A program made the translations under genes and the position numbers. Below, piece by piece: positions 20,603 to 55,905 of a stretch of 56,728 bases of DNA. This DNA comes from a virus (taxonomy: Duplodnaviria; Caudoviricetes). The notes beneath the pieces are model-generated. The model did not search any database. It had not been told where the DNA came from and saw only the letters and a program-made list of their open reading frames with translations. How positions within the stretch are numbered: position 1 is the stretch's first letter; every line of letters starts with the position of its first letter. The stretch is taken from the IMG/VR virus record IMGVR_UViG_3300014818_000012, positions 1 through 56,728 of that record; one strand, 5' to 3'.

Positions 20603-20718
20603 GTAACTCCCACCTTGACCACATGGATGTGGGGTAGGTAGCAAGAATGAGTGTAAAGTATACTGCAGGTATGTTAAAATACTTGCAGTATATTTATTCT
20701 TTTAAGGCATCCCTATCT

Positions 20719-23700: not shown

Positions 23701-26700
23701 GTAGATGGCTTACCTAACAACGAGATAATCGTTGAGGTAGGTAGTGATGGTAAATATAAAATAGCAAAACCTTCACGCGCAATCTTAGACTCCTTAGATG
23801 ACACTATTGACCATCTACAGACCACACTAGCCCGTTACAACAAAGCTACTGCTAAAGTGCTAGGGGTAAGCTCCTCTACCACTATTGATGTACCAGCCTC
23901 TACTAGTGTAAATAAATCTATACAAAAAGCTAGGGAAGCGGACACGAAATACTATGACAGTGTAAAGCCTACCAAGGTTATTGTTGATAATGGCACCAGC
24001 AGTAAGCAGTGGCAAAAAGGTGGTGACTACCATAGCTTAAATGAGACTAAAATAGTAGGGCCTAAGGAGTTTACTGCCGATGACGTAGTGCTACTGACCA
24101 CCCTAGATATAAAAGCGGGGAGCTCTGCGAGTAGACGACTAGCTGCGGCAATTGCTGCTGGTGCCACTATTGTAGTTGATCGTCAGTTGAAAAAGGGTAA
24201 TGGTAAAGCTATAAACACTCTTGCTAAGGCTTATAATGCAGGTGCAGTAACTGTAGAAGGTAAGTCTGTATGGAGGCCTATAGCAGAAGCTACTGAAATT
24301 AGAGCCGCTGCAGCTGTAGTAAAAAAAGAAGAGAATAAAAAAGCTCTTATTTTATCAAACTTGGTTAAAGCTTTTGACCAGATGTTTATAGAAAAAGGAA
24401 ATGCTAGTACCACGCAGAAAGAAAATGCCACCAAAGCGCAAGAGGCTGCTATAGAGTATTTTAAAGGGGATGCTAAAAAGCTAAATGACTATGTCCTTAA
24501 TACTATAAGAAAAGAGGCAGAGGCATTAGAGGTTATCCTTGATGACATTGTACTAAAAGAAGGTAGAGACTCTAAGGAGTACTCAGAGGCAGTAGGGAAG
24601 GCAACAGCTTCCGCCTACCTACTAGTAGAGAAAAAGGTTAAAGCTAATGAAGAAAGGCTCAGCAAAGGAAGTAGTCGTATTAAGGAATGGAAAAACGCTG
24701 CAGAAGTTGCTAAAAAAGGTGGTGAGACTTTAGTAGCATGGGTTAAAAAGGTATTTGGGGACGAATCTCGCAGTATTGCTATTACCGCTATTAAGAACTC
24801 CCTAGGGAAAGATAAGGCAGGTAAGACAATCTATTCTTACTGGTCAGAAGAACGTAGCGACTATGTTACTACAACTATGCTCAAAGAGGTAGAGGCGTTC
24901 TCCACGGATGGTACCTACACTATTATTGAAGTAGATCCTGATAACTACGTGGAAGTACGTGAAGCTACTGTACTTAATACATTAAGTGTAGAAGACCTGA
25001 AGGTGGAAGGTCTGGATGGTTTCGTATTTAACAGCTTTGTAGAAGACGCTGTGGAGGAGATGGGTAAGGCGATAAGTAGTGAAACTGATAAAGAGACTAT
25101 TTTACCTTTTAGTATAATAAATAGTTCAGCAGTTGGTCTACTCTATGATAAAGATAAAAAGCTCAACCCTAACTTAGCCGTAGCAGCTAAGGCAGCATTA
25201 TACAATTTTATAAAACATAACCAGTATTTACTAAGTAAAGATAGTAAAACCCTAGAGGATATCGCCCAGATTCTAGGGAAGCACCCTTCTGAGTTGTCCA
25301 AATCAGCTATTACAGCTATGCAAGATAATGGCCTCCTTCTTAAGATGGTCGCAGACAGTATGGGTAAAGAGATACTAGCTCTTATGGGTATGTCGCGTAA
25401 GAACACACCTGGAGTGGACTTACAGGCGTTTAGTGCCCTGACTACTGGATTAGGACAAGCAGCTGTCCTTATGGGTGTTAGTGAGGGACTACTTAACGAG
25501 ACATCCATGGGCAGTGTTGATTTTGCCAAAAATGTGCTAGGCAAAAAGGTAGAAGACACAACTGGCAGTACGTCAAAGGTAAACTTCGTAGAGCTAACTA
25601 CTGACTCTGCCGCTATTGAGGAAGTTATCTTAGCTGCAGATATCCTAGCGGATATCCTTCCGGGCTTGGATACTACCAGAAAAGAGCCGTTATTTAGTAA
25701 ACCAAATCATAAAGTGAAAAGTAAGGCTACTAAGGGAATTAAAAAGGAGCGCTTAGGACTTAACCTAGCTGCAGATTCTGTATCAGCAATGGAAAAGCTA
25801 ATGGACACGGAAATGGTCGCAGATATGACTTTAGTACGCTTCTTGATAGCTCCTGAGAATAAGGACCGTGCCTTGGCCCTACTAGGGCACATAGCCTTAG
25901 ACAGTGACGCATTTATGAACCTAAGCTACAAGGAGCAGCAAGTACAAGGTTCTAAAAATCGTGCTCTAGAGAACGCTATGGCCCACATGGAATGGTTGGA
26001 CACAACATCTGCAGGTGACGCTAAGGTGTCTATGTGGTTTAACTACTTCTTCTCAAAGAATGGTCGTTTCTTTATTGATAGTAATACTATTAACCCACAA
26101 ACAGATAAGCACTTCGCTAGATTCTTTGTTCAACCTAAAGACCATAATAACACGTACACAAAGTCAAAAGATGGGTCATTTAAGGTAGAGGGTAAAGATG
26201 TAACTAGTCTTGTTCATTATGCCTTAGCCCAGGCATTTGGTCTCGCTACTGATAAGTTGGGGGATCCTAAAATTGAGGCTTTCAGCAAAAAAATAATTAA
26301 GTCTATTAACAGTATGGCTAAGTTAAACAAGTACAGAGAAGAGTTTTTGACTACTGGGAAAGTAGAATCCCTAGGTATTGAGTTAGAGCACTTTGGTCAC
26401 GCTTTACAGGCTTTTGCCTTTTTGGAGAATACAATTAAGGCTAAAGGGAAACCTTTTGATAGTGCTATTAGTGCTGAGTTCGATGCGGTAACAAGTGGTT
26501 TTGCTCTAAAGCTACTACAAATGCCTATTATCGGAACCCTAACGAAAAAGTTACCTAGTGCTATGATAGAGTGGCTTGATAAGGTAGGTATTGTTATTAA
26601 CAGTTCAAGGTACCTAGATAAATTAGGGGATAAGACACCACTAAGTATGAACAACCTACTAGACACTAAAGGGTTTTTGGACAGTTATCAGTTCTTGGCT

Positions 26701-28179
26701 TCTAGTATTAAACCTACAGCTTATAAAAAACTGAAAAGTAGCTCTAACTCTCCACTACTTACTGATGAAGGATATCCAAAAGCCTTGTGGCAGGCAGTAT
26801 CTAAAGTGTTACCTAGCGTAGATCCGGGAGAGGCTGTGGACTCTTCACTACGTAGCTTGTTTAAAAGCCCTTTCATGACGTTTAACTACGCTGCTTCTAT
26901 CAAGTCTATTAGAACTAGGTTAAAAACTACTATGACGGACGAGGTGGCCGCTAAAATAGCCAAGCTAGATCTTAGTGCGGTGGAACAAGAGCCTGAAAAT
27001 GCTGCCTTAATAACCATGCTTACTGCGTATGTTGGTAATACCACAAGTAAAACAGCAGAAGAAGTGCAAAATATTATTGAAGATATACAGCAAAAAGTCC
27101 GTATATCAGACATTAATACCGTAAAGGTGGGTAAAGGGGCATCCCTAGGCCACTACTTAGAGTTAATGATTGATGCGTCTTATGGTAAACAGGTTGAAGA
27201 GGTATTAACAGCGAAGTTTAAACCATTCGTAGCAGCTCAAGATATTGTTAATGATAGTTTTAAAGCTATGTTTGAGGTGTTTGACATAGCCTTCCAGGAA
27301 AAGTTACTAGCTGCTAGACAGAATGGACCTGTCTCGGCGGTACAAGAAAAAGAGCTATATGAGTCATTGAAGAACCAGTGGCCTGCAATTAAGGGCCCAC
27401 TCAGTAACATGGAAGAAGAGTTTTCCGGTACAGGGGATATTGGGGTGTACAGTTTAGACACTGCTTCACCTTATGGGGTATTTGCTGGCCGTAAAGCTTC
27501 ACAAGTTACAAGAGGGGCTAGCAACAGAACAAGCAAAACTGGTAAGACTTTAACCACTTCTCATATGATCAAAAAGATAAGTGCAGCCATTAGTGCAGGC
27601 GCAGTTATCCCTATACATTATATTGATGGTGCTGTTATGGCCAAAACTGTACTAAACCATGATGGAAGCATACTGACCATACATGATGCTATAATACCTA
27701 GCTTAACTAAAATGTCTGAAGGACAAAAGGCCTATAACAAAGCCACGGTAGACGTGAGTATGGACTACAGCTTTATTAATGAGATAATGAAAAGCCTAGA
27801 TAGGGTTATTGAAAACACGGAGTTATTTGGTGAAGTAGGAAACCCTACAGTATACCAAAAAGCCCAAGTGGCTATAGACCGCACCACCAGCAGTAGTGCG
27901 AGTAGCTACATTATAAGTGTTAGAAACCAGATGGCAGGTTTAGCTAATACTGTTAATGCAGCACGTAAAGAGTTAGCATCGGCACTTAATGAAGGTGCGT
28001 CTATTATGCATATGGCGGGTACGTCTGAAGGTGTCCACACCATTGATGATACTAACAAGGTTGCCTACAAGGAAATTGACACTTACAAGCAAATAGCCGA
28101 TAATGTCCTTACACCATTGACGGAAGATGGTAAGTCTGTTACTGCCCTTATGGAAGACGCTGCAAATATCTGCAAATAA
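20719..28179 (+). CDS. Virion RNA polymerase, N-terminal and catalytic part (N4 gp50-like single-subunit RNAP)
   Basis: NGRF..INPQTDK; motif A EFDAVTSG; motif B RSLFKSPFMTFNY; motif C IHDA. ATG 20719 has a TAAGG RBS; the ORF is open from 20647. Confidence 0.92.
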   Translation: MNNSFDDTSYQPDTTDLTTGVSIDTPDTTPYEAPTPYEAPSAYDTFLEEKSTYSQEDQDALYGDIEGFLGDSTQSKAEALAIRKAEKLKHLGEQSQFSSLSSSYTELDDGTLESNANKIWNDLSGAEYTSLYDFAVEDLSLGVDDQGYFYKGSGERYEGPVRRSYGYNTKTSDEAYKFGVARGDRASSDTRYTDYEVGADGVDINKKQHDILLPEYIANTLEALGHGRKEALKGRLVPDALDIENYDRFGGGATEYYKSKNAFFGDPTAENYGTSLDSSAAKELLYNYATEYTTPSKYYRGQYSDDKYMDAYYGNIAEDAAQERYENQTVLDEALQVLSGFPAGVAKGALELLDAAQEAVTYLPQLAARVATGNSALDIDLFDDGYKKAIIEFTDDLVGYDRKLDEVTLSKATEELTAAGVDITSWESIKSAISDPEKRAHLGAAAWKLLSDPSLTVSMVTEMIGSGGALGAITKTASKVTSKVGSKAVLDAQKAVSGVLKSNLDNLKTNVAAANSAGDLVKVAELQKNYNILQKVPDLLKGSVYTNADMMVRMNKDITAFKENNEGSPPNTAKLLQIALANRVVSTAEVMSLKSLVGIKDVPARVLKEAAKKGVIKASGEAVGRLTKNGLMEGSQETLDSIVEQINQKLDTTRFEGKTLPDVLSEASAEILTGTFAGMAGGVQIGTGKLALDTVGAITKKPLGSLGKKVLKKGAKAVPAPATDLSEEDLAVVVGTADKTANSTVGKYSAMFGDEEVAKLLVNEDLETEQEIPTPELDTALEEAVSTESTYADMISEIEAAEVVLEDRQATPRKKDTDGIALKMLRKAKAQAAIRIIESEELPVLGSGYSPEDLVDDFIDAKTDVSGNLDITEEEKAKVNTFLKKNGQKPFRFERVQARLSGKDAAAVYEESMGTSANSAPSRRARLRRLVNTPGVNKALISKELGQINNFLTTQLNRRTQYSVTEKEVQKDIDAYNNRKSTAGKDVGAPKSRAVDGLPNNEIIVEVGSDGKYKIAKPSRAILDSLDDTIDHLQTTLARYNKATAKVLGVSSSTTIDVPASTSVNKSIQKAREADTKYYDSVKPTKVIVDNGTSSKQWQKGGDYHSLNETKIVGPKEFTADDVVLLTTLDIKAGSSASRRLAAAIAAGATIVVDRQLKKGNGKAINTLAKAYNAGAVTVEGKSVWRPIAEATEIRAAAAVVKKEENKKALILSNLVKAFDQMFIEKGNASTTQKENATKAQEAAIEYFKGDAKKLNDYVLNTIRKEAEALEVILDDIVLKEGRDSKEYSEAVGKATASAYLLVEKKVKANEERLSKGSSRIKEWKNAAEVAKKGGETLVAWVKKVFGDESRSIAITAIKNSLGKDKAGKTIYSYWSEERSDYVTTTMLKEVEAFSTDGTYTIIEVDPDNYVEVREATVLNTLSVEDLKVEGLDGFVFNSFVEDAVEEMGKAISSETDKETILPFSIINSSAVGLLYDKDKKLNPNLAVAAKAALYNFIKHNQYLLSKDSKTLEDIAQILGKHPSELSKSAITAMQDNGLLLKMVADSMGKEILALMGMSRKNTPGVDLQAFSALTTGLGQAAVLMGVSEGLLNETSMGSVDFAKNVLGKKVEDTTGSTSKVNFVELTTDSAAIEEVILAADILADILPGLDTTRKEPLFSKPNHKVKSKATKGIKKERLGLNLAADSVSAMEKLMDTEMVADMTLVRFLIAPENKDRALALLGHIALDSDAFMNLSYKEQQVQGSKNRALENAMAHMEWLDTTSAGDAKVSMWFNYFFSKNGRFFIDSNTINPQTDKHFARFFVQPKDHNNTYTKSKDGSFKVEGKDVTSLVHYALAQAFGLATDKLGDPKIEAFSKKIIKSINSMAKLNKYREEFLTTGKVESLGIELEHFGHALQAFAFLENTIKAKGKPFDSAISAEFDAVTSGFALKLLQMPIIGTLTKKLPSAMIEWLDKVGIVINSSRYLDKLGDKTPLSMNNLLDTKGFLDSYQFLASSIKPTAYKKLKSSSNSPLLTDEGYPKALWQAVSKVLPSVDPGEAVDSSLRSLFKSPFMTFNYAASIKSIRTRLKTTMTDEVAAKIAKLDLSAVEQEPENAALITMLTAYVGNTTSKTAEEVQNIIEDIQQKVRISDINTVKVGKGASLGHYLELMIDASYGKQVEEVLTAKFKPFVAAQDIVNDSFKAMFEVFDIAFQEKLLAARQNGPVSAVQEKELYESLKNQWPAIKGPLSNMEEEFSGTGDIGVYSLDTASPYGVFAGRKASQVTRGASNRTSKTGKTLTTSHMIKKISAAISAGAVIPIHYIDGAVMAKTVLNHDGSILTIHDAIIPSLTKMSEGQKAYNKATVDVSMDYSFINEIMKSLDRVIENTELFGEVGNPTVYQKAQVAIDRTTSSSASSYIISVRNQMAGLANTVNAARKELASALNEGASIMHMAGTSEGVHTIDDTNKVAYKEIDTYKQIADNVLTPLTEDGKSVTALMEDAANICK
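20803..20849 (+). repeat. 18-nt coding tandem repeat (TPYEAP x2 plus a partial copy)
   Basis: ACTCCTTATGAAGCACCT twice, then AGTGCTTATGA. Confidence 0.85.
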
Positions 28180-28194: not shown

Positions 28195-31100
28195 ATGACA
28201 AGTTGTACAAGCCCGAAGTTCCTTTTGGCGCAAGTGGAAGAACAAATTAGTATGCACGAGGTTCTTGCAGCAGACGATACCTTACAGGACGTGGACAGTA
28301 CTCCGCCATCGGAAACTCTGGATGAATTATACCTTGTGAGAAAAGCCTTACAGAAGGCAGAGCACGATCTAGTGCAGTCTCATGGTAAGTATAAACTTAG
28401 CTTGAAAGAGAAAAGTGACGCCGCTACTACAGCGTTTAAAAAAACGTTTGGTGCGGCCTTTAGCTTTACCCAAGGTACCGGTAACAAAGCTAGGGAAGGG
28501 TTGTTTAACAAAGCAGAAGTGGTGGATGGGGGAGTAAGAATTACCTTCACTCACGCAAAGAAAGTTAAAAGCTATACTTTTTCTTTGACTAGTGGGTCCC
28601 GTAGCACTAATAAAGGTAACACGTTTATTAATGTTGCAGGGTTCCGAGAGTTCCTGGATAACTATTTTCTTGAGCAAGATGCCATGAAAGCTTTACCAGA
28701 TATTTTTGGTAGTGAGCCTGGGGCAACACTTAATACAGATGACAAAAACCTAGAGGCGGACTACGTACATGGTGATGTAAAAAGTATGAGGGCAATGCTT
28801 AAAAAACTACACGTTATGGGTGGTGAGAAAGCCAGTGAAGCTGAACTAGACGAACACCTAGCTCTTGTAGATAAGATGGATCCTACGTTTTTCGAGTCTT
28901 TAAAGTTATATATAGAGGCTGAAGCTGATCGCTCTAATGGCGTAGTCAGTGCTAAGGCTATGAATATAAAGATAAAAGGCGCCCCAGCATCAATAGGGAA
29001 TCAACAGTCAGAAGCGTCTATTTACTTGGAAGAAGTAGTCCATTCAATGACTACTGCAGCTATAACCTCTAAAACTAAGAAGTCTGTCGCCCTTAAACGG
29101 CAGCTAGATCACTTAATAGAGTTGGGACGTGCACAGCTTACGTGGGAAGACTTTTTACCTCCTAGCAGCGAGTCTATTGACCCTGCAGTAGAAGAAGCCT
29201 ACGCGAAAAAGCTTTATAGCTACATATTTAACGCTGAAAATGCAGACTATGAATTCTTAGCTAAGGGTGTTGCACAGCCTTTAGTAGCTAAAGCATTATC
29301 AACAGTGCAGGTACGGGATAGGGGTGAAGTTAAAAGTATTCTTGAAAAGCTACAAATGTTTTTTTCTACTGTCATAGATATATTACTAGGCAATATTTCC
29401 GCTAAGAATAAAGATAGTAACGTAAAAGATGCCTTAATTTCTTTAGCCTATGAGCTTGGGGCTATTAACACCAAGAAAAGTCAAAAGTTGTTAGAGGCGC
29501 CTGGGTTCTTAGGAAGAGTTTATGACATTGTATTTAATGACACTGACAGAGTTGTTGCTGATGCTGTACATAAGGTAACTAAAAAAACTTTTGGCAAAGC
29601 TGCAGCTAAAGCATACCAACCTATGCCAGAAGACCTGTATGGCCGTGTAAAGTGGATGAGCAACAACATAAGGTTGTCCTTAGTAAACCCTACATATACT
29701 AAAGTAATGGGGGCATTGGCTAGCTCTTATGGCTTACGCCCAGACGGTACTGTACGTGAAATTGTTTCAGGACTCTTTGAGACTGAACCTGTACAGAAGA
29801 TAGCTGAATTTTTAGTACTACAAGCCGGTTACGTAGATAAGCAGCGTAACAACCAGGTAGGTATCACTAGAGATAGCGTACTTTCTATGTTTACAGAAGC
29901 TCCTACCAGAGAAGAGGAAGAAGCCCTAACGGAAATCTTAGCTGACACTGACCTAGCCTCGTTATTTGGTATGGCATCAAGTGCATCTGATAACAACTTA
30001 GTAGGTAAAAGGGTTTTTGACAACGCCACTGTACGGAAAATATTGACAGACGAAGACACACTAGACAAGTTTATTGCTGAAGCAAAACGAGCCTTAAGAG
30101 ACCTAGATCCCGCACACTATAACTGGCATACCAACCAAGCTGCTGGCCTGGGTATATACATGGCTAAGCACCAAGGTACTCCTGCACAAAACTTTAATGC
30201 AGAAAATATTGTTAAGGGTATTCACAGTGCCCATAGTAAGCAAGCTAATAAAAATACAGTGAGAGCTGTAGATGAGTTAGCTACGCTAGTCGCTATAAAG
30301 TATAGCGATGTAGGAGCACGTAACACTACAGCTGCCTTAATGAAGAAAGATTGGACAGGCGTACAGCACGTAGCCGATGTGGTTAAAGGGTTTAGTGCTA
30401 ACTCTAATGAAACAGTCTTTAAAGGTAAGAAAACTAACAAGATAAAAGGTTACAGCAGAGAAATTTACGACGATTCTATTATCGTGGAAACAGCCCTTCT
30501 AGAAGACCGAGAGGCTATGGAAGCCCAAGGATTTACCTTTAGGGGTAAGCTTTCTGCTAGGATAGGAGACGGTAGTAGAAAACCTATGGCTTTATACGTA
30601 ACTGATAGTATTAGTCGACCAGAACGATTACGTGGTGGGTTACGTTTAAACCAACTTAGAAGTAAAGGTACTACCGTTAGTTCTGCAGCTTACAAGCAAG
30701 GTGAAGGTTTTAGTAACAGCGTGATTAGAGAAAGATCTAAACGTGATATTAATGAGTTACAGAGAATAGCTACTGTTGACGCTAAAAAGATGGAGTCAGG
30801 AGAATTTACATTTAAAGATAGTATGTTTGGCGTATCCCCTATCATAAACGAAGACGGGAAAGTAGTTGACTACCGTTACATGATGGATAAAGAAACGAAG
30901 ACAAATATCCTTAAGCCAGATAGACGTATATCAGAAGTTATGGGTAGATCTTTTGGTAGTTTACTAGATAAAGAAATGAGTGCTGCACATAATGCAACTG
31001 TGTTAGAAACTATGAAAGAGGATATGGTACGTAGCTGGGAAAGTGGAAGCAAAGGAAAAGATGGACTAACAGACTTCACATTAGTTGGCCCTAACGTAGC

Positions 31101-32514
31101 TGACCCAGAAATGCGTAAGATGTACTACATGCTGCCTAGGGAGTTCCATGAGTTTATTAATTCTCGTGAAGATAAAACTTTGGCGGTACGCACTAGTTTA
31201 AAGAATGCCTACTTTGGGTACACCCAGTTGTCTATTACAGATTTTCCTGGGCTAAAATATATTACACCTAAGGTGGTGAGGAAAATTTTACGTGTCGCGG
31301 AAGTTATCTGGATGGAATTAGTACAGATAGCCAAAACAAATATCTTAATGAAAATGCCTACGGTTACTGTCAGTAACTTTATTTCTAACACAGTGTACTT
31401 ATTATCTAAAGGGTATAACCCTGTAGAAGTAATAACAATGCAGTTAGAGAGTTTTAAAGAGATTAAGAGTTATAACAAGCATACTAAAAGACTCCAAGCA
31501 TTGCAAAATAGAGAAGGGGAGATTGTTGCTGCTCTTACAAGGGACATGCTATCAAGTGCAAAACGTAAGGAGCTGTTAGCTGAAGAACGTAAGATAACTA
31601 TGCAATTGGGACGAAAGGACTTAAAACCTGCACGACGAGAAGAGTTGCTAAGACAAGATGGTAGAGTAAAAAAGGCTATTGTAGCTGATTCTACTATGGA
31701 TAAGAGAAAAAAAGCACTTAGCGTAGAGTTGAGTAGAGTAAAAGGGGAAGCTGCTAAGTTACGTGTTAGTATTAAAGATAGTCGTATAAATGAGTTAGTT
31801 GAGTTAGGTTTGGATCAGAGTGTAGAGGATATAACCTCTAATGTTGTGAGGGACACTAATAGAGTTAGCGAGTTTTTTGATAGTAAACTTGAAAAAGTTC
31901 CTACGGTGATACGTACGGGGGTAGATTACTTGTTTTTAACAAAACGTACTGTGCCTTACAAAGTGGTAAATGAGTTTTTAGAAATTACGGATTTGATGTC
32001 TAGGGATATTCAGAATACTTTTGAACAGCGTACTGAAGAAAAGCAGGTGAGAGGCAAGGAAAAACTACCTCGTTGGTGGTTGGATAAGCAGAAAGATGGG
32101 TACTTAGCTACGCAGACCTTAACAGGCGCAGAGCGTACAGCTTTCTTAAAAGAAGCAAAAAAGGTAAGGCACTATGATCTAGTTGAAGATTATATTAACT
32201 ATGCATTACCATCATCTAGCTTCGAGGAATACTTGAATAAAGTAGGTATTTTAATGTTTACTAAATACGTTAAACGTATTCAGCGTATTATTGTAAAAGC
32301 AGGTAGTAAAGGCCCTATAAAAGCTATAGTGACCCTAATGCTAGTAAGTATAGCGGCTGGACTACCCACTATTCATGAGCAGTCCTTTTTAGCTAAGGAG
32401 TGGTACACAAGCTCTATAGGGTTTGGAAATGTATTTCCAGTGTACGCCCCTACAGATATTTTGCTTAATGTATTTACCCCATCATTACTGAAAGAGTCTA
32501 CGTATCAGTTTTAA
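28195..32514 (+). CDS. Virion RNA polymerase C-terminal part encoded as a separate gene
   Basis: Zincin-like LEEVVH...EFLA segment and C-terminal YINY...YLNKVGILMF resemble the N4-like vRNAP C-terminal region; own AGGAA RBS. Confidence 0.8.
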   Translation: MTSCTSPKFLLAQVEEQISMHEVLAADDTLQDVDSTPPSETLDELYLVRKALQKAEHDLVQSHGKYKLSLKEKSDAATTAFKKTFGAAFSFTQGTGNKAREGLFNKAEVVDGGVRITFTHAKKVKSYTFSLTSGSRSTNKGNTFINVAGFREFLDNYFLEQDAMKALPDIFGSEPGATLNTDDKNLEADYVHGDVKSMRAMLKKLHVMGGEKASEAELDEHLALVDKMDPTFFESLKLYIEAEADRSNGVVSAKAMNIKIKGAPASIGNQQSEASIYLEEVVHSMTTAAITSKTKKSVALKRQLDHLIELGRAQLTWEDFLPPSSESIDPAVEEAYAKKLYSYIFNAENADYEFLAKGVAQPLVAKALSTVQVRDRGEVKSILEKLQMFFSTVIDILLGNISAKNKDSNVKDALISLAYELGAINTKKSQKLLEAPGFLGRVYDIVFNDTDRVVADAVHKVTKKTFGKAAAKAYQPMPEDLYGRVKWMSNNIRLSLVNPTYTKVMGALASSYGLRPDGTVREIVSGLFETEPVQKIAEFLVLQAGYVDKQRNNQVGITRDSVLSMFTEAPTREEEEALTEILADTDLASLFGMASSASDNNLVGKRVFDNATVRKILTDEDTLDKFIAEAKRALRDLDPAHYNWHTNQAAGLGIYMAKHQGTPAQNFNAENIVKGIHSAHSKQANKNTVRAVDELATLVAIKYSDVGARNTTAALMKKDWTGVQHVADVVKGFSANSNETVFKGKKTNKIKGYSREIYDDSIIVETALLEDREAMEAQGFTFRGKLSARIGDGSRKPMALYVTDSISRPERLRGGLRLNQLRSKGTTVSSAAYKQGEGFSNSVIRERSKRDINELQRIATVDAKKMESGEFTFKDSMFGVSPIINEDGKVVDYRYMMDKETKTNILKPDRRISEVMGRSFGSLLDKEMSAAHNATVLETMKEDMVRSWESGSKGKDGLTDFTLVGPNVADPEMRKMYYMLPREFHEFINSREDKTLAVRTSLKNAYFGYTQLSITDFPGLKYITPKVVRKILRVAEVIWMELVQIAKTNILMKMPTVTVSNFISNTVYLLSKGYNPVEVITMQLESFKEIKSYNKHTKRLQALQNREGEIVAALTRDMLSSAKRKELLAEERKITMQLGRKDLKPARREELLRQDGRVKKAIVADSTMDKRKKALSVELSRVKGEAAKLRVSIKDSRINELVELGLDQSVEDITSNVVRDTNRVSEFFDSKLEKVPTVIRTGVDYLFLTKRTVPYKVVNEFLEITDLMSRDIQNTFEQRTEEKQVRGKEKLPRWWLDKQKDGYLATQTLTGAERTAFLKEAKKVRHYDLVEDYINYALPSSSFEEYLNKVGILMFTKYVKRIQRIIVKAGSKGPIKAIVTLMLVSIAAGLPTIHEQSFLAKEWYTSSIGFGNVFPVYAPTDILLNVFTPSLLKESTYQF

Positions 32515-34141: not shown

Positions 34142-34165
34142 AAAAAAGGGACCTAAGTCCCTTTT
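34142..34165 (-). terminator. Intrinsic terminator after nrdB
   Basis: AAAAAAGGGAC-ctaa-GTCCCTTTT. Confidence 0.85.
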
Positions 34166-34191: not shown

Positions 34192-35121
34192 TTAATAAAT
34201 AAAGTCTCCTTCCATTCCGGCAACTGCATAATCAGTTACACGTTTTTCAAAGAAGTTGGCTAGTGAGCTACCGTTGTTTAATTCGTCCATCCAACCTAAA
34301 GGGTTCGTAGTACTATTAAAATTAGGCTTTAGCCCTAGCTGAACTAGTCGTCTATCAGCTATAAACTCAATGTAAGCCTTAACGTCCTCTTTATTTAGTT
34401 TAGGCGGCTGGTAAGAACCAAAGGCAAACTCAACAAAGTTTTGTTCAAGCAGTACAATCTCACGTGCCATTGTGTAGATGTGCTTTTTGAAAGTGTCATT
34501 AACTTCTTTTGGGTTCTCGTCACACCAAGTACGGAACAACCATGCATTACCTTCAACATGAAGTGATTCATCACGTAAAGACCATTCATTGATTGTACAT
34601 GTACCTAGGTACTTACCCACACGCTCAAAGTTTTTAAGCATGACGAAAGAGCCAAATAAACTGACCCCTTCTAGTAGAATACCCTTAGCCAGCTTTAAAC
34701 CAAAGCTCTCAAAGGTACTATTTGCCATGTAAGAATCTTTTTCTAAGGTTTCCTGATGTACCAAGAAATCAGTATAGTAGCTATCTGGAAAGCCTAAAGA
34801 TTCATTTAAGTGTGCATAGCCTTCTTGGTGAATAAATTCACGGGCCATGAAACTAGTTAGCATGCCACGCACTTCATTGTTTTTAACCTTGTTGATTAAA
34901 GGCAAGTAGTTAGCGGCTACGTTAAAGTCGGACTGGGTAAATATGGATAAGATGTTCTTGATAAACTCTTTTTCCTCTAAAGAGGCTGACTTAAAGTCTT
35001 CCACATCTTTAGTCATCTCAACTTCTTTTACTATCCAATGGATATCCTCTGACTGAAGACGATATTCTTCAGCTTGAGGGTACCTTAGAGGCTTATACGT
35101 TCTACTTAGTTCTGTTAGCAT
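34192..35121 (-). CDS. nrdB: Ribonucleotide reductase class Ia beta subunit
   Basis: FTQSD, EFIHQEGY, EGVSLF, DESLH and NFFEKRVTDY motifs; start placed at ATG 35121. Confidence 0.95.
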   Translation of the reverse strand: MLTELSRTYKPLRYPQAEEYRLQSEDIHWIVKEVEMTKDVEDFKSASLEEKEFIKNILSIFTQSDFNVAANYLPLINKVKNNEVRGMLTSFMAREFIHQEGYAHLNESLGFPDSYYTDFLVHQETLEKDSYMANSTFESFGLKLAKGILLEGVSLFGSFVMLKNFERVGKYLGTCTINEWSLRDESLHVEGNAWLFRTWCDENPKEVNDTFKKHIYTMAREIVLLEQNFVEFAFGSYQPPKLNKEDVKAYIEFIADRRLVQLGLKPNFNSTTNPLGWMDELNNGSSLANFFEKRVTDYAVAGMEGDFIY

Positions 35122-35126
35122 GTCAA

Positions 35127-36854
35127 TTATCCTTCGCAAGCAAGACAAGTGTCTAGTGAGCCTTGTACGCCGTCTTTCAACGCGTTACGCTCAACCTTAA
35201 CATTAATCTTTTCGGTTTTTTTACTAGACTCAGTACGTAAATAGTACACCCCTTTAAGAGGTTGTCCTACATCGTCAGCGGGCTTAAAGGCACGTCTATG
35301 AACTGCATTAACATAACTTTTTGGTGCCCCAGAAGGGAAAAATATGTTAACTGACTGTCCTTGGCATAGGTACTCTTGACGGCTACGAGCCATCTCCACT
35401 ACCCAGTTCTGGTCAATCTCAAATCCAGTTTTAAAGATATCTTTTTGGTCAACTGATAAGAAGTCTAAATGTTGTACAGAACCATCTTTTTGCATAATGG
35501 AACTCCATGTACTCTCTGTATTTTGGTTGTAACTTTCCAACACAGGAACTAACGCTGGGCTCTTAACTAAAAAGCTACCAACCCTAGTTTTATGAGTATA
35601 GCAATTTGATGCTCTAGGCTCTATAGAAGGACTTACCCCTAAAATTATAGAGCTGTTGGCATTAGGTGCAATAGCAAGTAAATGCGTATTACGAACACCA
35701 TACCCTACAGCATCTGGAGCTTCACCACGTAGTTGAGCTAGTTCTTTTGTTTTGGTTAACGCTTGAGACTTAATATTGTTAAATATTCTTTTATTAACAG
35801 AGATAGCTAAGCTACTCTCAAAAGGTATATTATTAAACATTAAGTAGTCGTGAAAACCCATGGCACCTAGGCCTAGTGATCGTTCTCGAATAGCCGAGTA
35901 CTTTGTCTTCACTAGCTCACTTGGAGCATTGTCAATAAAGAACTGTAAAACGTTATCTAGCATCTCTATTAAATCACCGATAAACAACTTGTTATCTTGC
36001 CATTCATTAAACTTAACCAAGTTTACTGAAGACAAACAACATACCGCTGAACGATTTTCATCCGTAGGTAAGTGTATTTCATTACACAAATTACTTCCGT
36101 TAATCTTAAGACCTAGCGCACGTAGTGCTGGATGCATTTGACGGTTAGCTTCATCTAAGTAGTTAATGTAGGGTTCCCCAGTACGGAATCGAGTCGTTAA
36201 GATCTCTTCCCATATGTGACGAGCACGTACAACTTCTACGACTCTACCATCCTTTGTATCCAATAGTGACCATTCTAAATCATCATTAACCGCTTCAAGG
36301 AATGCATCATTGATGTTTACTCCGTGGTGGAGGTTAAGGTTTTTACGATTTAAGTCACCTGTGGGCGTACGCATCTTAATAAACTCAATAATTTCTGGAT
36401 GACTAACATCCAAGTATGCGGCATAGCTGCCTCTACGAGTTTTACCTTGACGGTACGCTACCATATCGGCATCTACGGTGTGTAGAAAACCATTAACACC
36501 TGGAGTTTTATCGGAGATTGATCTTACACTAGACCAATGACCTCCAACGCCACCTCCTTTAACAGATAGCCAACGTTCTTCGGTAGTGTGTGAACACAAC
36601 CCTTCGATGGTATCTGGTACATAAGTTAAAAAGCAGCTGATAGGCAAGCCTTTAACTTCTTCACCCGGTGCTGGGGCGTTACTGAGTATAGGTGAACTAA
36701 ACATAAACCATTCTTTTTTAAGATAGTCTTGCAGTCGTTCACTATGCCCGGAGTCTGTAGCATAACACTCACTAGCCCTTTTAAAAGCGTCATGAATGGA
36801 TTCATTTGGTCTACAGTAGTGTTTTTTAAGTAACTCTTTAGCGAAATCAAGCAC
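35127..36854 (-). CDS. nrdA: Ribonucleotide reductase class I alpha subunit (no ATP cone)
   Basis: PISCF, SNLCNEI, CCLSS, APNANSS, YYLR and C-terminal CLACEG. Confidence 0.96.
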   Translation of the reverse strand: MLDFAKELLKKHYCRPNESIHDAFKRASECYATDSGHSERLQDYLKKEWFMFSSPILSNAPAPGEEVKGLPISCFLTYVPDTIEGLCSHTTEERWLSVKGGGVGGHWSSVRSISDKTPGVNGFLHTVDADMVAYRQGKTRRGSYAAYLDVSHPEIIEFIKMRTPTGDLNRKNLNLHHGVNINDAFLEAVNDDLEWSLLDTKDGRVVEVVRARHIWEEILTTRFRTGEPYINYLDEANRQMHPALRALGLKINGSNLCNEIHLPTDENRSAVCCLSSVNLVKFNEWQDNKLFIGDLIEMLDNVLQFFIDNAPSELVKTKYSAIRERSLGLGAMGFHDYLMFNNIPFESSLAISVNKRIFNNIKSQALTKTKELAQLRGEAPDAVGYGVRNTHLLAIAPNANSSIILGVSPSIEPRASNCYTHKTRVGSFLVKSPALVPVLESYNQNTESTWSSIMQKDGSVQHLDFLSVDQKDIFKTGFEIDQNWVVEMARSRQEYLCQGQSVNIFFPSGAPKSYVNAVHRRAFKPADDVGQPLKGVYYLRTESSKKTEKINVKVERNALKDGVQGSLDTCLACEG

Positions 36855-36864: not shown

Positions 36865-37257
36865 TTATTTTAGTTCTGTTATTGAGATTATAGCTCTCGG
36901 ATTATCTTTATCTGCGCCTAGTACTTTCCAAGAAGTGCCTAGGTGGTACTTAACGTTGTCGTTTATTACCGTTTTATTTTCTTGCAGCGCGTCTAGTGTG
37001 AATTTTTCTATTAGTGCTACTATGTTGGCTCCGTCACAAGAAGCGTTTTTATAGTATATTCCTATATCTAAGGAAAACTTACCCGTGAACTGAGCAGTAT
37101 CTAGTTGCTTCACTACCAGCTCATGAAAGTCTTTTTTCATTTTATTCTGCGCGTGAAAATGTGCGTTTCGATACCAGTTCATACCAACAAGGCATGTTTT
37201 ATCGTTCTTAGTTTTAAAATGTTGTGTCCAATATATTGGTAACTCTATGTCTATCAT
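36865..37257 (-). CDS. RusA-like Holliday junction resolvase
   Basis: DGAN...K...DAL...INDN motif; ATG 37257 with GAGAG RBS. Confidence 0.7.
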   Translation of the reverse strand: MIDIELPIYWTQHFKTKNDKTCLVGMNWYRNAHFHAQNKMKKDFHELVVKQLDTAQFTGKFSLDIGIYYKNASCDGANIVALIEKFTLDALQENKTVINDNVKYHLGTSWKVLGADKDNPRAIISITELK

Positions 37258-37272
37258 AATACTCTCAATTAA

Positions 37273-37412
37273 ATTAGGTCCAATGATTATCTGGCACCCC
37301 ATTGGGAAGGCTGAAAGGAATATTAACCCCTGCCACTACTTCGATTAGGTCGGTGATTATTGAGCACCCCACCGAAAAGGCTCAACAGGTATAAGGAGTC
37401 ACACCCTGCTCA
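37273..37412 (-). ncRNA. Two tandem copies of a structured (junction plus pseudoknot) RNA motif
   Basis: 71-nt period; conserved linkers with compensatory stem changes; G-U pairs favour the minus strand. Confidence 0.7.
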
Positions 37413-37433
37413 GAGAGTCTTTTATCCATCACC

Positions 37434-39287
37434 TTAATCGGGTTTTGTCTTTTTAGTCTTTAGCTCTTGTAGTACTTTTTTAACTTCAGTAACAGAAGCC
37501 TTATTTGGTACCCTAAGCATTTCTGCCCAGTTGTACCCGATGTCACTTTCAGCTTCATTTTTAATGGTTTGGTTTTCCATAAAATCAACCAGCATCGCAT
37601 CGATTAAGTTATCATTAACCCATTTAATAACTTCAGCATCTTCAGTTATCTCAAAGTATATAGAGTCATAAATAGTTGATACAACCTTAACATCTTCCTG
37701 GTACCCCATTTGGTCTATCCGCTGATGCATCTTGTTTATAGTCAACGCAGTCAGTATAGACCAGAACTGGCAAGTAGCATTAGCTAGTGTTCTGATGTCC
37801 CTATCAGGGTCATCTGTTTTTAGCATAAAACCAAGCCCTAGGTGAATCTCACCTTGCCTCTTAGCTGTCGGCAGTACGTAGTTTTCACGGTAGTCCGTAA
37901 TCCCTGGGTACAGTACGTTATGGTAGTTGTTAAAGATATCTTCTGCATCCTCTAAAGGAATTTTAAGGGTAGCTGCAATTTTAGGCGGGAAAGCCCCATA
38001 AGCTAAGCCAAATGTAGGCCCTTTTGAGTCTTGCCTAATTTCCCCTGCAGCTACATTCCCTTCGTCTACCAGCTTTTTAAAGTTAGCAGCATCCGTAGAA
38101 GTATTACCTGTAAGAGGCATAAGAGCTTTAATCTTGTTATAAAAGTACCCTAAGGCATTTAGTGAATGTCCATCTAAGTTCTTTAGGAAGATATCACATT
38201 TGTTAGTATCTCTAGAAAGAGATGCTATTACCCGGTCTTCTAGTGCACTGTAATCTGCCGTCAGTATAACTTTACCCGCTGGTGCCGTAAAGCACTTTTT
38301 CACAGGCTTAGCAAACCTAGATCCTGTGGACGGAGTATTAAGCATGTTAGGGTTGCTACTTGTGTAGCGCCCTGACTTGGCTCCCAGTAGTTTATACTGC
38401 CCGTACAGTCTACCATCAACTGAGTAGTTATAAAAAGCTTCTATGAAGTTATTTTTAATGATAGCAGCAAAGGAGTAGTCAATAAAGCACTGAGTAAAAT
38501 GTTTTACCTCTGTGTCATGAGTTTCTATATGTACTCTTTCTACTTGGCTACGATCCCACTTAGGTAGTCCTGTAGTCTTAGACACGTTCTCTGAAGGTAT
38601 GTCTAACATACTAAATAGCTCCTGCTTTTGTACTGGAGATCCGGGGTTAAACATAGGGTACTCTACGGAAGGTTTTTTAACTTGCGCTAAAAACTTCTCA
38701 TTGTACATCTTAGCTTTGTCTTTAGCCAGCTTTGCCATAGCCAACCCAATAGTAGGGTTACTACTAGGTAGTGTCCCTGCTAGCAGGTTCTGGAGCACCC
38801 TATTAGTCTTAGCATACTTTTTAACAAGGTTCGCTGGCCACTTACTAACACCTGTAGGTAGCTTATCTTCAGGGTTACCCCATCCTTGTAGCTTGGCATA
38901 CTCATGCATAAAGTAACTTCTGTGTGCCATATCATTGTATTTAAAGGACCCTAGGTAGTGTTCAGGCTTACGCATTTTGTCTTTTCTGTCTTTAACATAA
39001 GCGTTTACTTGGGCAGAGTACCTGTCCTCAAGATAGTTATTTATTAAAGGGTTAGCCGCCAGCTCACTCTTAACCTCTGCAAGTTGCTCTGCCAGCACCA
39101 CCTCCAGCTCAATTACTTTATCTATATCGATGTGTAAACCATTATCCATTATACGTACAGTATCTTTAATAAGGTGTTTGGCAGTATTTTCATAAAAATA
39201 CCCTGGAGCATATACCTTTTCTTTTGGCTCTGTGCCAGGCAATTGGTCATGAGGGCTATAGTTATTTGTGGTTATTGACAAAGTCAT
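37434..39287 (-). CDS. Family A DNA polymerase, polymerase domain
   Basis: SGRYTSSNPN; motif A DYSALEDR; motif B RQDSKGPTFGLAYG; motif C IYDS. Confidence 0.93.
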   Translation of the reverse strand: MTLSITTNNYSPHDQLPGTEPKEKVYAPGYFYENTAKHLIKDTVRIMDNGLHIDIDKVIELEVVLAEQLAEVKSELAANPLINNYLEDRYSAQVNAYVKDRKDKMRKPEHYLGSFKYNDMAHRSYFMHEYAKLQGWGNPEDKLPTGVSKWPANLVKKYAKTNRVLQNLLAGTLPSSNPTIGLAMAKLAKDKAKMYNEKFLAQVKKPSVEYPMFNPGSPVQKQELFSMLDIPSENVSKTTGLPKWDRSQVERVHIETHDTEVKHFTQCFIDYSFAAIIKNNFIEAFYNYSVDGRLYGQYKLLGAKSGRYTSSNPNMLNTPSTGSRFAKPVKKCFTAPAGKVILTADYSALEDRVIASLSRDTNKCDIFLKNLDGHSLNALGYFYNKIKALMPLTGNTSTDAANFKKLVDEGNVAAGEIRQDSKGPTFGLAYGAFPPKIAATLKIPLEDAEDIFNNYHNVLYPGITDYRENYVLPTAKRQGEIHLGLGFMLKTDDPDRDIRTLANATCQFWSILTALTINKMHQRIDQMGYQEDVKVVSTIYDSIYFEITEDAEVIKWVNDNLIDAMLVDFMENQTIKNEAESDIGYNWAEMLRVPNKASVTEVKKVLQELKTKKTKPD

Positions 39288-44824: not shown

Positions 44825-44871
44825 ACATGTTCCCTCCATTAGTTAGTTAGTTAGTTAAAAATAGTAGCACC

Positions 44872-54684: not shown

Positions 54685-55905
54685 TTAGTTAGTTAATTTT
54701 ATTGCTGTCATTTTACCCTGATTCATATCTTCCATAATTCGCCCTGTTGAATCAACAAGCCATATAACTGGTACCTTCAAAGCATAAAATGCCATAACGT
54801 CTTCTGTTGACAGATATCCGTCTGTTGTTACTACTATGGCGTTGTAAGAAACTTTGTGCTCTTTAAAGGAGTCAATAGCAGGGGATAGGAAAGTACCCCC
54901 CATAGCCTTACGTTCTACAACTTTAGACTTTTTATTAAGTGCCTCTGGAGCAGTAGGGGTTGTGTCTACCTGCACCATTTGAACTGGTGTGTTATAGGTG
55001 TGGCAGATATTTATAATCTCCCCCCATAACTCTTTTAGTGCGGATTCAGAAACTGATCCAGACACATCTGATACAACAGCTAGTTCAAAGATACGATCTT
55101 TAGTCTTGCCTTTAATCCAGTTTGCAAATGGTAAACGTCTATCACGACGCATAAGTGTTTTACGGGTATTAGCTTTTTTATTGCCTACAATTCTACGAAG
55201 TACTTGTTTCCAATTAACTTCTCTACGAATTGTAAGATTCTCAACCATACCTGAATAGTTACTAGGTAGGCTGCCCATACTTTTAATAGTATCATTGGCT
55301 GCTTTCTCTACCATTTTTTTAGTTATTTCAGTTTGTACATACTCGTCCCCTTCGCTTTCTTGCCAAAGGTCATGGTCATCTAAAAGTGCCCCTTTTTCTG
55401 CAACGCTAGAAGAGCCAAACTCTTTATCCCCTAGCCCCTCTTCGGGAGTGTTCTCCAGAAGGTTGTAATAAAACTCTGATGTTTGTTTCCAGTGGTTGTT
55501 AGCCTCAGGGGCAGGATAGTTATCTGGGTATATAACACCTTTAGGTAGATGGCCTCTATCGATTTCTTGGTTAAGAGCACAATCCGCCGCATAGTTAAAC
55601 TTAACGTGGTTAGTGTTTTCATCCTTGCCTCGAAGTATGTGCCCTAAAGCAATATGTAGCATCTCATGCTTTATTACTCCTATACGTTGCTCCAAAGGGA
55701 ACAGCTTGTAGGCATCTAGGTTAATATACAAGTTGTAAGCACCATTAGTAAAGTTAACTCCCATAGGAGCTTTAAGGGTATCGTCAAATACTACCCGGCA
55801 CTGCGACAGCACATGCATGTAAAACACATACTCCTTGTAAAAAGGAGTAGAGGCTATAGACATGTTAGCTACTGCTTCGTCAAAAACGTTACGATCATTA
55901 GACAT
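54685..55905 (-). CDS. Metallopeptidase-vWA domain protein (AAA+ partner)
   Basis: HEMLH, MIDAS DVSGS, GGT and TDG motifs. Confidence 0.88.
   Translation of the reverse strand: MSNDRNVFDEAVANMSIASTPFYKEYVFYMHVLSQCRVVFDDTLKAPMGVNFTNGAYNLYINLDAYKLFPLEQRIGVIKHEMLHIALGHILRGKDENTNHVKFNYAADCALNQEIDRGHLPKGVIYPDNYPAPEANNHWKQTSEFYYNLLENTPEEGLGDKEFGSSSVAEKGALLDDHDLWQESEGDEYVQTEITKKMVEKAANDTIKSMGSLPSNYSGMVENLTIRREVNWKQVLRRIVGNKKANTRKTLMRRDRRLPFANWIKGKTKDRIFELAVVSDVSGSVSESALKELWGEIINICHTYNTPVQMVQVDTTPTAPEALNKKSKVVERKAMGGTFLSPAIDSFKEHKVSYNAIVVTTDGYLSTEDVMAFYALKVPVIWLVDSTGRIMEDMNQGKMTAIKLTN

What the first reader, a model, noticed from the sequence alone, without database searches (positions are those of the whole stretch)
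37273..37412. Tandem covarying pseudoknot RNA motif between DNA polymerase and resolvase genes
Seen on the minus strand. Copy 1: UGAGCA-[hairpin]-AGCCUUU-UCGGUG-GGG-UGCUCA-AUAAU-CACCGA-CCUAAU. Copy 2: UGGCA-[hairpin]-AGCCUUC-CCAAUG-GGG-UGCCA-GAUAAU-CAUUGG-ACCUAAU. Linkers are conserved while both the closing stem and the pseudoknot stem change compensatorily, and the variable hairpins use G-U pairs. The second copy ends about 15 nt before the resolvase ATG. I could not match it to a tRNA, riboswitch or ribozyme that I know. Inference: a new structured RNA class, such as a nuclease-blocking element, tandem riboswitch, ribozyme or antitoxin-mimic RNA.
Basis: partly seen in the sequence, partly recalled or inferred. 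Interest (0 to 1): 0.85.

Follow-up and report, generated by a model that had tools for sequence, protein, structure and literature searches.

The report
New pseudoknot RNA behind phage polymerase
A previously undescribed folded RNA of about 65 bases, with a three-way junction and a pseudoknot, sits in one to three copies just after the DNA polymerase gene of a group of marine phages; its structure is well supported, but its job is still a guess.

Summary
Two units (minus strand 37342-37413 and 37272-37337) fill the gap between a family-A DNA polymerase gene and a RusA gene. Rfam 15 and ARAGORN find nothing. Sixteen related phage lineages give 20 distinct units, all directly 3' of the polymerase stop codon (0-91 nt) and 1-3 per genome. 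Only AltAD45-like marine podophages carry it. Across them the closing stem S1 and the pseudoknot stem S2 covary: S2 is paired in 120 of 120 cells, with double changes at 6 of 6 pairs. A hairpin P2 folds in 20 of 20 units. A 2-bp helix P3 shows two compensatory changes. The fold is therefore a three-way junction whose P3 loop pairs with the strand 3' of S1.

The unit follows the polymerase gene, not the resolvase gene. In 7 lineages a promoter-driven gene cassette lies between it and RusA, and in 1 an endonuclease gene does.

The function is unresolved. My leading guess (about 0.35) is that it acts in cis on transcription read-through from the polymerase gene into RusA and ribonucleotide reductase. 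Control of decay or processing (including a ribozyme or a nuclease block) and a trans-acting decoy RNA remain live rivals. A translational switch for RusA is disfavoured.

The parts
37434..39287 (-). Family-A DNA polymerase gene. Its stop codon lies 20 nt upstream of unit 1.
   Evidence: ORF list; Pfam DNA_pol_A, E 6.2e-31
37342..37413 (-). RNA unit 1 (three-way junction plus pseudoknot). S1 5' strand 37412-37407. P2 hairpin 37406-37387. Junction 37386-37382. P3 5' strand 37380-37379. S2 5' strand 37375-37370. GGG (P3 3' strand) 37369-37367. S1 3' strand 37366-37361. Linker 37360-37356. S2 3' strand 37355-37350. Tail 37349-37344.
   Evidence: (69.8 bits)
37272..37337 (-). RNA unit 2. S1 5' strand 37335-37331. 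P2 hairpin and junction 37330-37313. P3 5' strand 37310-37309. S2 5' strand 37305-37300. GGG 37299-37297. S1 3' strand 37296-37292. Linker 37291-37286. S2 3' strand 37285-37280. Tail 37279-37273.
   Evidence: (66.2 bits)
36865..37257 (-). RusA-like Holliday-junction resolvase gene. The ATG at 37257 follows a purine-rich ribosome-binding site. The longer ORF starting at 37302 is only an in-frame extension into unit 2.
   Evidence: phrog_1682, E 1.8e-31
34192..36854 (-). Ribonucleotide reductase large (35127-36854) and small (34192-35148) subunit genes, the downstream part of the same gene string.
   Evidence: Pfam Ribonuc_red_lgC, E 3.9e-96, and Ribonuc_red_sm, E 3.7e-60
34142..34165 (-). First canonical hairpin-plus-U-run terminator downstream of the units, after the small reductase subunit gene.

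Best explanation
Each unit is an independently folding RNA domain of about 60-75 nt. It is transcribed on the sense strand as part of the replication-gene message. A closing stem S1, a variable hairpin P2 and a 2-bp helix P3 meet in a three-way junction. The loop of P3 pairs with the strand that follows S1, giving a 6-7 bp pseudoknot stem S2. A 5-nt A/U-rich linker joins S1 to S2. The junction-proximal pairs of all four helices are nearly invariant. All of this is shown by sequence and covariation.

What follows is inferred. The conserved core is a docking surface, and the unit acts in cis on the transcript that carries it. My leading reading is that it acts on transcription read-through at the border between the polymerase gene and the RusA/ribonucleotide-reductase genes. 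It could do this as an antiterminator or attenuator acting on the host RNA polymerase, with or without a bound ligand. Extra copies would then raise the chance that a passing polymerase is captured. I hold this as the best of several weak options, not as established.
For: Structure:
- S2 is paired in 120 of 120 cells, with double-sided changes at 6 of 6 pairs.
- The five inner pairs of S1 are paired in 100 of 100 cells, and 2 of them covary. S1 was not part of the search model.
- In 0 of 500 shuffles is the covariation score or the paired fraction reached, and sliding the 3' partners drops pairing from 89% to 39-48% (a similar result on 15 MAFFT-aligned units).
- P2 folds from its first base in 20 of 20 units.
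- P3: where the middle G of the GGG changes, the partner C changes to keep a Watson-Crick pair. This happens in L058 and in L029 unit 2.
- G-U pairs in S1 and P2 point to the sense strand.

Locus specificity:
- There is one locus per genome: the complete AD45-P1 genome has 1 unit, a 92%-complete record has 1, and others have 3, 1 and 1. The window has 2.
- The locus is always behind the polymerase stop codon.

Read-through reading:
- In AD45-P1 a hairpin with an A/U-rich tail follows the unit by 11 nt, just before RusA.
- In 4 of 4 cassette-bearing loci with enough sequence, a canonical terminator lies between the unit and RusA, with only about 20-25 nt and no obvious promoter before the RusA start.
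- In 3 lineages S2 plus its U-rich tail itself scores as terminator-like.
- These phages show host-type -10 elements and hairpin terminators.
- No T7-type RNA polymerase domain was found in 4 records. The AltAD45 paper states that no RNA polymerase II genes were found (section 15 read).
Against: - I found no mutually exclusive structure (expression platform).
- The U-rich tail is separated from S2 by about 3 non-U bases, which is poor for an intrinsic terminator.
- In 7 of the 8 lineages where RusA follows directly, including the window, I saw no terminator between the unit and RusA. In the two whose flank was long enough (the window and L006) the first one found lies after the reductase genes. 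AD45-P1 is the eighth.
- The window also has intergenic terminator-like hairpins upstream of the units in the same gene string, near 44861 and 43306. Read-through is therefore not a problem peculiar to this border.
- Nothing shows that the host polymerase transcribes this region. These phages carry a split virion RNA polymerase.
- The Pfam control genomes did not ring, so that negative is weak.
- No experiment or RNA end mapping was available.
Confidence: 0.35

Rival explanations
1. Decay or processing element. The knot marks where the polymerase message is cut, for example by an endonuclease in the A/U-rich tail. It may also block an exonuclease or a scanning RNase, as flaviviral xrRNAs block Xrn1. 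The polymerase segment and the RusA/reductase segment would then have different lifetimes.
For: The unit lies behind the polymerase stop codon in 16 of 16 lineages, whatever gene follows. Its three-way junction plus P3-loop-to-3'-strand pseudoknot, its tandem copies and its place after a polymerase ORF parallel class 1a xrRNAs, as described in PMC8571300 (passages read). The A/U-rich tail after S2 is conserved.
Against: A general stabiliser should recur in a genome, but there is one locus only. In AD45-P1 and in the cassette lineages a canonical terminator hairpin downstream would already protect the 3' end, yet the unit is kept. The nearly invariant junction core is more than a simple stabiliser needs. 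No counterpart of the xrRNA 5' pseudoknot is seen: the bases 5' of S1 are not conserved. From my own knowledge, gammaproteobacteria lack an Xrn1- or RNase J-type 5'-3' exonuclease.
Confidence: 0.2
2. Trans-acting RNA. The units are released from the polymerase message as stable small RNAs. They bind and titrate a protein, such as a host defence or RNA-metabolism factor, the phage polymerase, or an antitoxin-like target.
For: The units are self-contained. Copy number ranges from 1 to 3 and spacers from 2 to 22 nt. The unit is independent of the downstream gene. The conserved core could serve as a binding surface. In AD45-P1 the unit plus the terminator hairpin resembles a small RNA derived from a 3' UTR.
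Against: No own promoter was seen. Most lineages have no terminator right after the unit. For an antitoxin mimic specifically, the units are 59-75 nt and diverged, not near-identical short repeats, and no toxin gene is adjacent. In a pattern scan of 185,579 species genomes, only 1 of 64 matching stretches was a true copy, on a contig that carries the phage gene order.
Confidence: 0.2
3. A new class of small self-cleaving ribozyme that cuts the polycistronic message behind the polymerase gene.
For: The size, the pseudoknotted junction with nearly invariant core bases, the tandem copies and the phage-only distribution all resemble the known small ribozyme classes (my own knowledge). The unit is independent of the neighbouring genes.
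Against: No Rfam ribozyme model matches at E up to 10. There is no hammerhead, twister, pistol or HDV-type strand order (read). The prior for any new motif being catalytic is low. Nothing here points to a cleavage site.
Confidence: 0.1
4. Translational operator or riboswitch for the resolvase gene. The unit controls access to the RusA ribosome-binding site.
For: In 7 lineages, including the window, the last unit ends 18-26 nt before the RusA start. In the window a 6-nt stretch just upstream of unit 1 is complementary to the RusA ribosome-binding site.
Against: In 7 lineages a promoter-driven gene and a terminator lie between the unit and RusA. In 1 lineage an endonuclease gene does, and in AD45-P1 a terminator hairpin does. 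The unit is still fully conserved in all of them. I did not find the window's flank complementarity in the other lineages, by eye.
Confidence: 0.05
5. A DNA-level feature (promoter, iterons, an origin) or a chance repeat, with no RNA structure involved.
For: The simple promoter scan lists a -35/-10-like pair inside unit 1 (37385-37356, 9 of 12 matches).
Against: Compensatory double changes in S1, S2 and P3 are not expected for a duplex-DNA binding site. The -35-like bases and the A at the key -10 position are not conserved across units. G-U pairs favour one strand. The promoter-like count in the region equals the shuffle expectation (33 against 36).
Confidence: 0.03

Closest known systems
Flavivirus class 1a exoribonuclease-resistant RNA (xrRNA)
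   Same: Both have a three-way junction of three helices and a long-range pseudoknot between the loop of the third helix and the strand 3' of the first helix. Both often occur as tandem copies, lie in untranslated RNA right after a polymerase-encoding ORF, and are about 70 nt long (xrRNA features from passages of PMC8571300).
   Different: There is no sequence or model similarity. There is no sign of the second, 5'-end pseudoknot, and no fourth helix. P3 is only 2 bp. The host is a bacterium, which from my own knowledge lacks Xrn1. Nuclease resistance is untested.
Processive antiterminator RNAs (HK022 put, Bacillus EAR).
   Same: Both are structured RNAs of about 65-120 nt inside an operon. 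They act, or here would act, in cis on the elongating polymerase upstream of terminators. Both have a narrow distribution and few copies per genome. EAR lies between genes of an operon.
   Different: The architecture differs: put is two stem-loops. Rfam gives no match to any family. Any action on RNA polymerase is pure inference here.
Pseudoknot riboswitch aptamers with an embedded hairpin (such as preQ1-II) and tandem riboswitches. Recalled; the review PMC9481103 was seen only in a search listing.
   Same: Both have a compact pseudoknot with an A-rich linker, nearly invariant junction bases and tandem copies. In AD45-P1 a terminator hairpin follows. Reductase genes lie downstream.
   Different: No model match, no expression platform found, and no fixed position in a 5' leader. 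The unit occurs only in one phage clade.
Type III antitoxin RNA arrays (ToxI-like) and phage pseudo-ToxI. Recalled.
   Same: Tandem pseudoknotted RNA units whose copy number varies between related phages.
   Different: The units here are about twice as long and are diverged, with compensatory changes, instead of near-identical. There is no adjacent endoribonuclease toxin gene, and no cellular counterpart was found.

Membership tests
Any Rfam 15 family (4227 models, including riboswitches, ribozymes and xrRNA-type elements) | Score at or above the family's gathering threshold | tested here: not met
   The whole window gave 0 matches at gathering score. The 401 bases around the units, at E up to 10, gave only a 17.6-bit fragment hit to a plastid intron model (cut-off 43), and it lies outside the units.
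tRNA / tmRNA | Cloverleaf detected by ARAGORN | tested here: not met
   0 genes in the window.
Flavivirus class 1a xrRNA | Three-way junction of P1, P2 and P3 | tested here: met
   S1, P2 and P3 are supported by covariation and folding. P3 is only 2 bp, with two compensatory cases.
Flavivirus class 1a xrRNA | PK2: the loop of P3 pairs with the strand 3' of P1 | tested here: met
   S2 has 6-7 bp, is paired in 120 of 120 cells, and all 6 pairs covary.
Flavivirus class 1a xrRNA | PK1: the 5' end pairs into the junction, closing a ring around the 5' end | tested here: not met
   The bases 5' of S1 are not conserved and I saw no covarying partner for them (table). The three-dimensional fold is not testable here.
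Flavivirus class 1a xrRNA | Blocks a 5'-3' exoribonuclease | not testable with these tools
   Needs an enzyme assay.
Riboswitch | Conserved aptamer with covarying stems and conserved unpaired bases | tested here: met
Riboswitch | Constant position in the 5' leader of the regulated gene class | tested here: not met
   The next gene is RusA in 8 lineages, a promoter-driven 142-aa gene in 7 and an endonuclease VII-type gene in 1 of 16.
Riboswitch | Expression platform that competes with the aptamer | tested here: inconclusive
   A terminator hairpin follows in AD45-P1 only. I found no convincing alternative pairing by eye, and I ran no systematic test.
Riboswitch | Binds a small ligand | not testable with these tools
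   Needs in-line probing or a similar assay.
Type III antitoxin RNA (ToxI-like) | Array of near-identical short repeats next to an endoribonuclease toxin gene | tested here: not met
   The units are 59-75 nt and diverged. The neighbours are a DNA polymerase and RusA.
Processive antiterminator RNA (put/EAR type) | Lies in the transcript upstream of terminators that must be passed | tested here: inconclusive
   Met in AD45-P1 and in 4 of 4 cassette loci with sequence. In 7 of the 8 lineages where RusA follows directly, including the window, there is no terminator between the unit and RusA, and in the two whose flank was long enough the first one found lies after the reductase genes. Terminator-like hairpins also lie upstream of the units.
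Processive antiterminator RNA (put/EAR type) | Modifies the elongating RNA polymerase | not testable with these tools
   Needs in vitro transcription.
Intrinsic terminator | Stable hairpin directly followed by a U-run | tested here: inconclusive
   My scan calls S2 plus tail terminator-like in 3 of 13 sequences scanned (L027, L058, L020). The consensus scan lists nothing at the units in the window. About 3 non-U bases separate S2 from the U-rich stretch.

The most novel reading that the evidence does not exclude
The unit is a new class of small self-cleaving ribozyme that cuts the replication-gene message just behind the DNA polymerase cistron. Readings of similar novelty are a first phage counterpart of viral nuclease-resistant RNA knots, and a new riboswitch class that reports the nucleotide pool to the reductase genes. 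Each is separately about as likely.
Probability: 0.1. Interest if true: 0.9.

Novelty: new variant of a known kind. Interest (0 to 1): 0.62.

Why it matters
Structured RNAs with this much conserved architecture usually bind something specific or catalyse a reaction. Very few such classes are known from phages, and fewer still are limited to them. This one has a cultured representative: Alteromonas phage AD45-P1 on Alteromonas macleodii AD45. Its function can therefore be tested directly. If it acts on RNA polymerase, on an RNase or on a metabolite, it would add a new RNA device to phage gene control, at the border between the DNA synthesis genes and the nucleotide supply genes. If it only tunes message stability, it is still an unusually elaborate example. 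The distribution is narrow: 16 lineages of one clade.

Tried and rejected
- **Nested folding.** MFE folding of the region is no more stable than shuffles (z +0.86). It cannot see the pseudoknot.
- **Coding.** The units are 59-75 nt long, the open frame differs from unit to unit, and 6 of 20 have stops in all three frames.
- **Remnant of the RusA 5' end upstream of the unit in cassette lineages.** Local alignment scores of 12-18 fall within the shuffles, whose means are about 14.
- **Tail word as a recurring signal, such as a promoter.** 30 matches with up to 1 mismatch in the window, against 29 expected.
- **Promoter inside the unit.** The -35-like bases and the key -10 A are not conserved.
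- **boxA-like reading of the S1 3' strand plus linker** (consensus recalled). Those bases covary with the S1 5' strand, so it is the pairing that is kept, not the word.
- **Tail pairing with the P2 5' strand or with the GGG.** I saw no covariation by eye.
- **N4 RNA polymerase II promoter or terminator ideas.** The AltAD45 paper reports no RNA polymerase II genes, and no PF00940 match was found (weak control).
- **RNA sequencing runs.** Only Logan contigs of two runs with small shares lay on the region: 151- and 178-nt pieces spanning unit 2 and the RusA start. They cannot show ends, strand or expression, so I draw nothing from them.
- **Further pattern scans of the viral collection.** They added no new lineage.
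- **Literature searches.** Searches found no description of this element. The AltAD45 paper has 0 occurrences of 'intergenic' and 'terminator'. Supplementary files were not seen.
- **Tools.** The repeat finder call failed on strand format and I did not repeat it.

Full report
**What is in the window**

On the minus strand, the 176 nt between the stop codon of a family-A DNA polymerase gene (37434-39287; Pfam DNA_pol_A, E 6e-31) and the ATG of a RusA-like resolvase gene (37257; phrog_1682, E 1.8e-31) hold two similar units. They lie at 37342-37413 and 37272-37337.
- S1 5' strand
- a hairpin
- a short conserved word
- S2 5' strand
- GGG
- S1 3' strand
- an A/U-rich linker
- S2 3' strand
- a conserved tail

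A pattern for the shared core hits the window twice, against 0.02 expected. Ribonucleotide reductase large and small subunit genes follow RusA. A helicase gene and a 3'-5' exonuclease gene precede the polymerase gene.

**Known families**

- Rfam 15 gives no match at gathering score in the whole window.
- At E up to 10 around the units it gives only an unrelated fragment hit outside them.
- ARAGORN finds no tRNA or tmRNA.
- Nested MFE folding is unremarkable (z +0.86), as expected for a pseudoknot.

**Relatives**

- *Isolated phages.* Among 50,697 phage records, only the Alteromonas phages AD45-P1 to P4 share the region. AD45-P1 has one unit between its polymerase and RusA genes, and nothing is annotated there.
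- *First pattern scan of the viral collection.* It gave 20 stretches. By reading, 9 are true and 11 are chance hits in coding sequence.
- *Polymerase relatives from viral contigs.* The unit is present in 8 of 12 loci: those with 70-78% polymerase identity, and none of the four at 52-59%.
- *Polymerase relatives from metagenome contigs.* The unit is present in 6 of 9. Two of the misses have 56-57% identity, and one lacks the 3' end of the gene.
- *One genome per 185,579 prokaryote species.* The pattern scan gave 64 stretches, of which 1 is real. It lies on a contig of a bin labelled Sulfolobales that carries the same polymerase / unit / RusA order, so it is most likely a phage contig placed in the wrong bin.
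- *Further pattern scans.* They added nothing new.

After merging duplicates I count 16 lineages and 20 distinct units. The window and L029 have 2 units, L006 has 3, and all others have 1. The AltAD45 phages are N4-related podoviruses with a split virion RNA polymerase and no RNA polymerase II genes (PMC3821669, abstract passage and section 15 read).

**Structure**

I counted pairs on the 20 units aligned to a model that contained only P2 and S2.
- S2 is paired in 120 of 120 cells, and all 6 pairs show changes on both sides.
- S1 was not in the model. Its five inner pairs are paired in 100 of 100 cells, and two of them covary.
- Overall, 89.4% of cells pair, against 80.1% in shuffles. In 0 of 500 shuffles is this value or the covariation score reached. 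Sliding the partners drops pairing to 39-48%.
- A MAFFT alignment of 15 units gave the same picture.
- Caveat: the sequences are related and the alignment was fitted to S2, so the shuffle counts are not probabilities.

A script that extends pairs from the fixed anchors finds 6 of 6 S2 pairs and a 5-6 bp S1 in 20 of 20 units. The region after S1 folds into a hairpin starting at its first base in 20 of 20 units. Loop sequence and length are free.

Two Cs upstream of the S2 5' strand can pair with the first two Gs that follow it. This gives a 2-bp helix, P3. In the two units where the middle G differs, the partner C also differs and pairing is kept: G to A with C to U in L058, and G to C with C to G in L029 unit 2. 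The second case needs a 1-nt register shift.

The fold is therefore a three-way junction (S1, P2, P3) whose P3 loop pairs with the strand 3' of S1. The junction-proximal pairs of all four helices, the linker and the first bases of the tail are nearly invariant, while the distal pairs and the P2 loop vary. G-U pairs in S1 and P2 would be A-C mismatches on the other strand, so the sense strand is the folded one. The units are not coding.

**Context**

The locus is unique in each genome:
- 1 unit in the complete 103.9-kb AD45-P1 genome;
- 1 in a 92%-complete record;
- 3, 1 and 1 in three others, all at the polymerase 3' end;
- 2 in the window, with the next hit at 13.6 bits.

The first unit starts 0-91 nt after the polymerase stop codon. 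The next gene varies.
- *RusA in 8 lineages.* In 7 of them the unit ends 18-26 nt before the RusA start. In AD45-P1 a hairpin with an A/U-rich tail lies in between.
- *A 142-aa gene in 7 lineages.* It matches phrog_858, annotated as starvation-inducible, and looks Dps-like to me. By eye it has a perfect TATAAT in 6 of 7 and TATACT in 1, preceded by TG or by a -35-like hexamer. The consensus scan flags only L004 and not L024. In 4 of 4 loci with enough sequence the gene ends in a canonical covarying terminator, about 20-25 nt before RusA.
- *An endonuclease VII-type gene in 1 lineage*.

The unit thus stays with the polymerase 3' end and is fully conserved even when it is cut off from the RusA ribosome-binding site. 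This excludes RusA translational control as the general mechanism.

**Function**

None of this is shown. I partition the options as follows.

- **A. Cis control of transcription read-through, about 0.35.**
  - For: terminators lie between the unit and RusA/reductase in AD45-P1 and in the cassette lineages, with no promoter evident after them. S2 plus its tail scores as terminator-like in 3 lineages. The promoters and terminators are of host type. A self-contained promoter/gene/terminator cassette is tolerated inside the gene string.
  - Against: I found no expression platform. The window, and the six other lineages where RusA follows the unit directly, have no terminator between the unit and RusA; in the window and L006 the first one found lies after the reductase genes (window 34142-34165). 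Terminator-like hairpins also lie upstream of the units.
- **B. Decay or processing, about 0.3.** Of this, about 0.1 is a self-cleaving ribozyme, and the remaining 0.2 covers an xrRNA-like nuclease block and RNase-guided cutting in the tail together.
  - For: the architecture and the tandem habit resemble flaviviral class 1a xrRNAs (passages of PMC8571300).
  - Against: the 5' pseudoknot is not seen. A generic stabiliser should recur in the genome. It would also be redundant with the canonical terminators downstream.
- **C. A released, trans-acting protein-binding RNA, about 0.2.** It fits every context, but I saw no own promoter or terminator. An antitoxin mimic is unlikely.
- **D. A RusA translational operator, about 0.05.**
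- **E. A DNA-level feature, about 0.03.**

Only short assembled contigs from two RNA libraries touched the region, and they say nothing about ends or expression.

**Novelty and verdict**

I found no description of the element in Rfam, in the GenBank annotation of the AD45 phages, or in five literature searches.

The element is a real, new family of structured RNA with good comparative support, a narrow distribution and an open function. A cultured phage-host pair is available for the decisive tests.

Noticed in passing
L024:4825-4896, L026:4804-4875, L055:3469-3531, L056:3475-3535: In four cassette-bearing lineages the spacer between the polymerase stop codon and the unit holds a second element. 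It is a 9-10 bp stem whose two strands covary between lineages, by eye. The stem encloses a loop of about 35 nt with two conserved blocks. The automatic alignment is out of register and supports the stem only partly.
   Followed up: partly
L004:6090-6640; L024:4967-5510; L026:4945-5490; L027:4879-5400: A self-contained cassette lies between the unit and RusA. It consists of a -10/-35-like promoter, a 142-aa phrog_858-type gene (Dps-like to my eye) and a canonical terminator. It looks like a moron insertion.
   Followed up: partly
L020:6972-7607 (minus strand): An endonuclease VII / HNH-type gene is inserted between the unit and RusA and overlaps the RusA start. It looks like a free-standing homing endonuclease.
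   Followed up: partly
L006:7831-7840; L030:4915-4925: RusA seems to start at AUU, after a good ribosome-binding site. No ATG, GTG or TTG lies at the conserved N-terminus. This would mean deliberately weak RusA translation.
   Followed up: no
L114 (contig of a genome bin labelled Sulfolobales archaeon): The contig carries the phage polymerase / unit / RusA order, with a unit scoring 74.4 bits. It is almost certainly a marine phage contig placed in the wrong bin.
   Followed up: partly
window 20647-28179 and 28195-32514 (+): Two very long adjacent ORFs (about 2510 and 1439 aa) run towards the replication module. They may be the split virion RNA polymerase described for the AltAD45 phages. I did not test this.
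   Followed up: no
window 34142-34165: The hairpin after the small reductase subunit gene has A-runs and U-runs on both sides. It scores as a terminator on both strands, so it may be bidirectional.
   Followed up: partly
window 37416-37421 and 37262-37267 (minus strand): Six bases just upstream of unit 1 are complementary to the RusA ribosome-binding site. Pairing them would close a helix around both units. I did not see the same in the other lineages.
   Followed up: partly
window 54874-54934 (+): The only other model hit below E 1 in the window: 13.6 bits, E 0.09. I took it as noise and did not inspect it.
   Followed up: no
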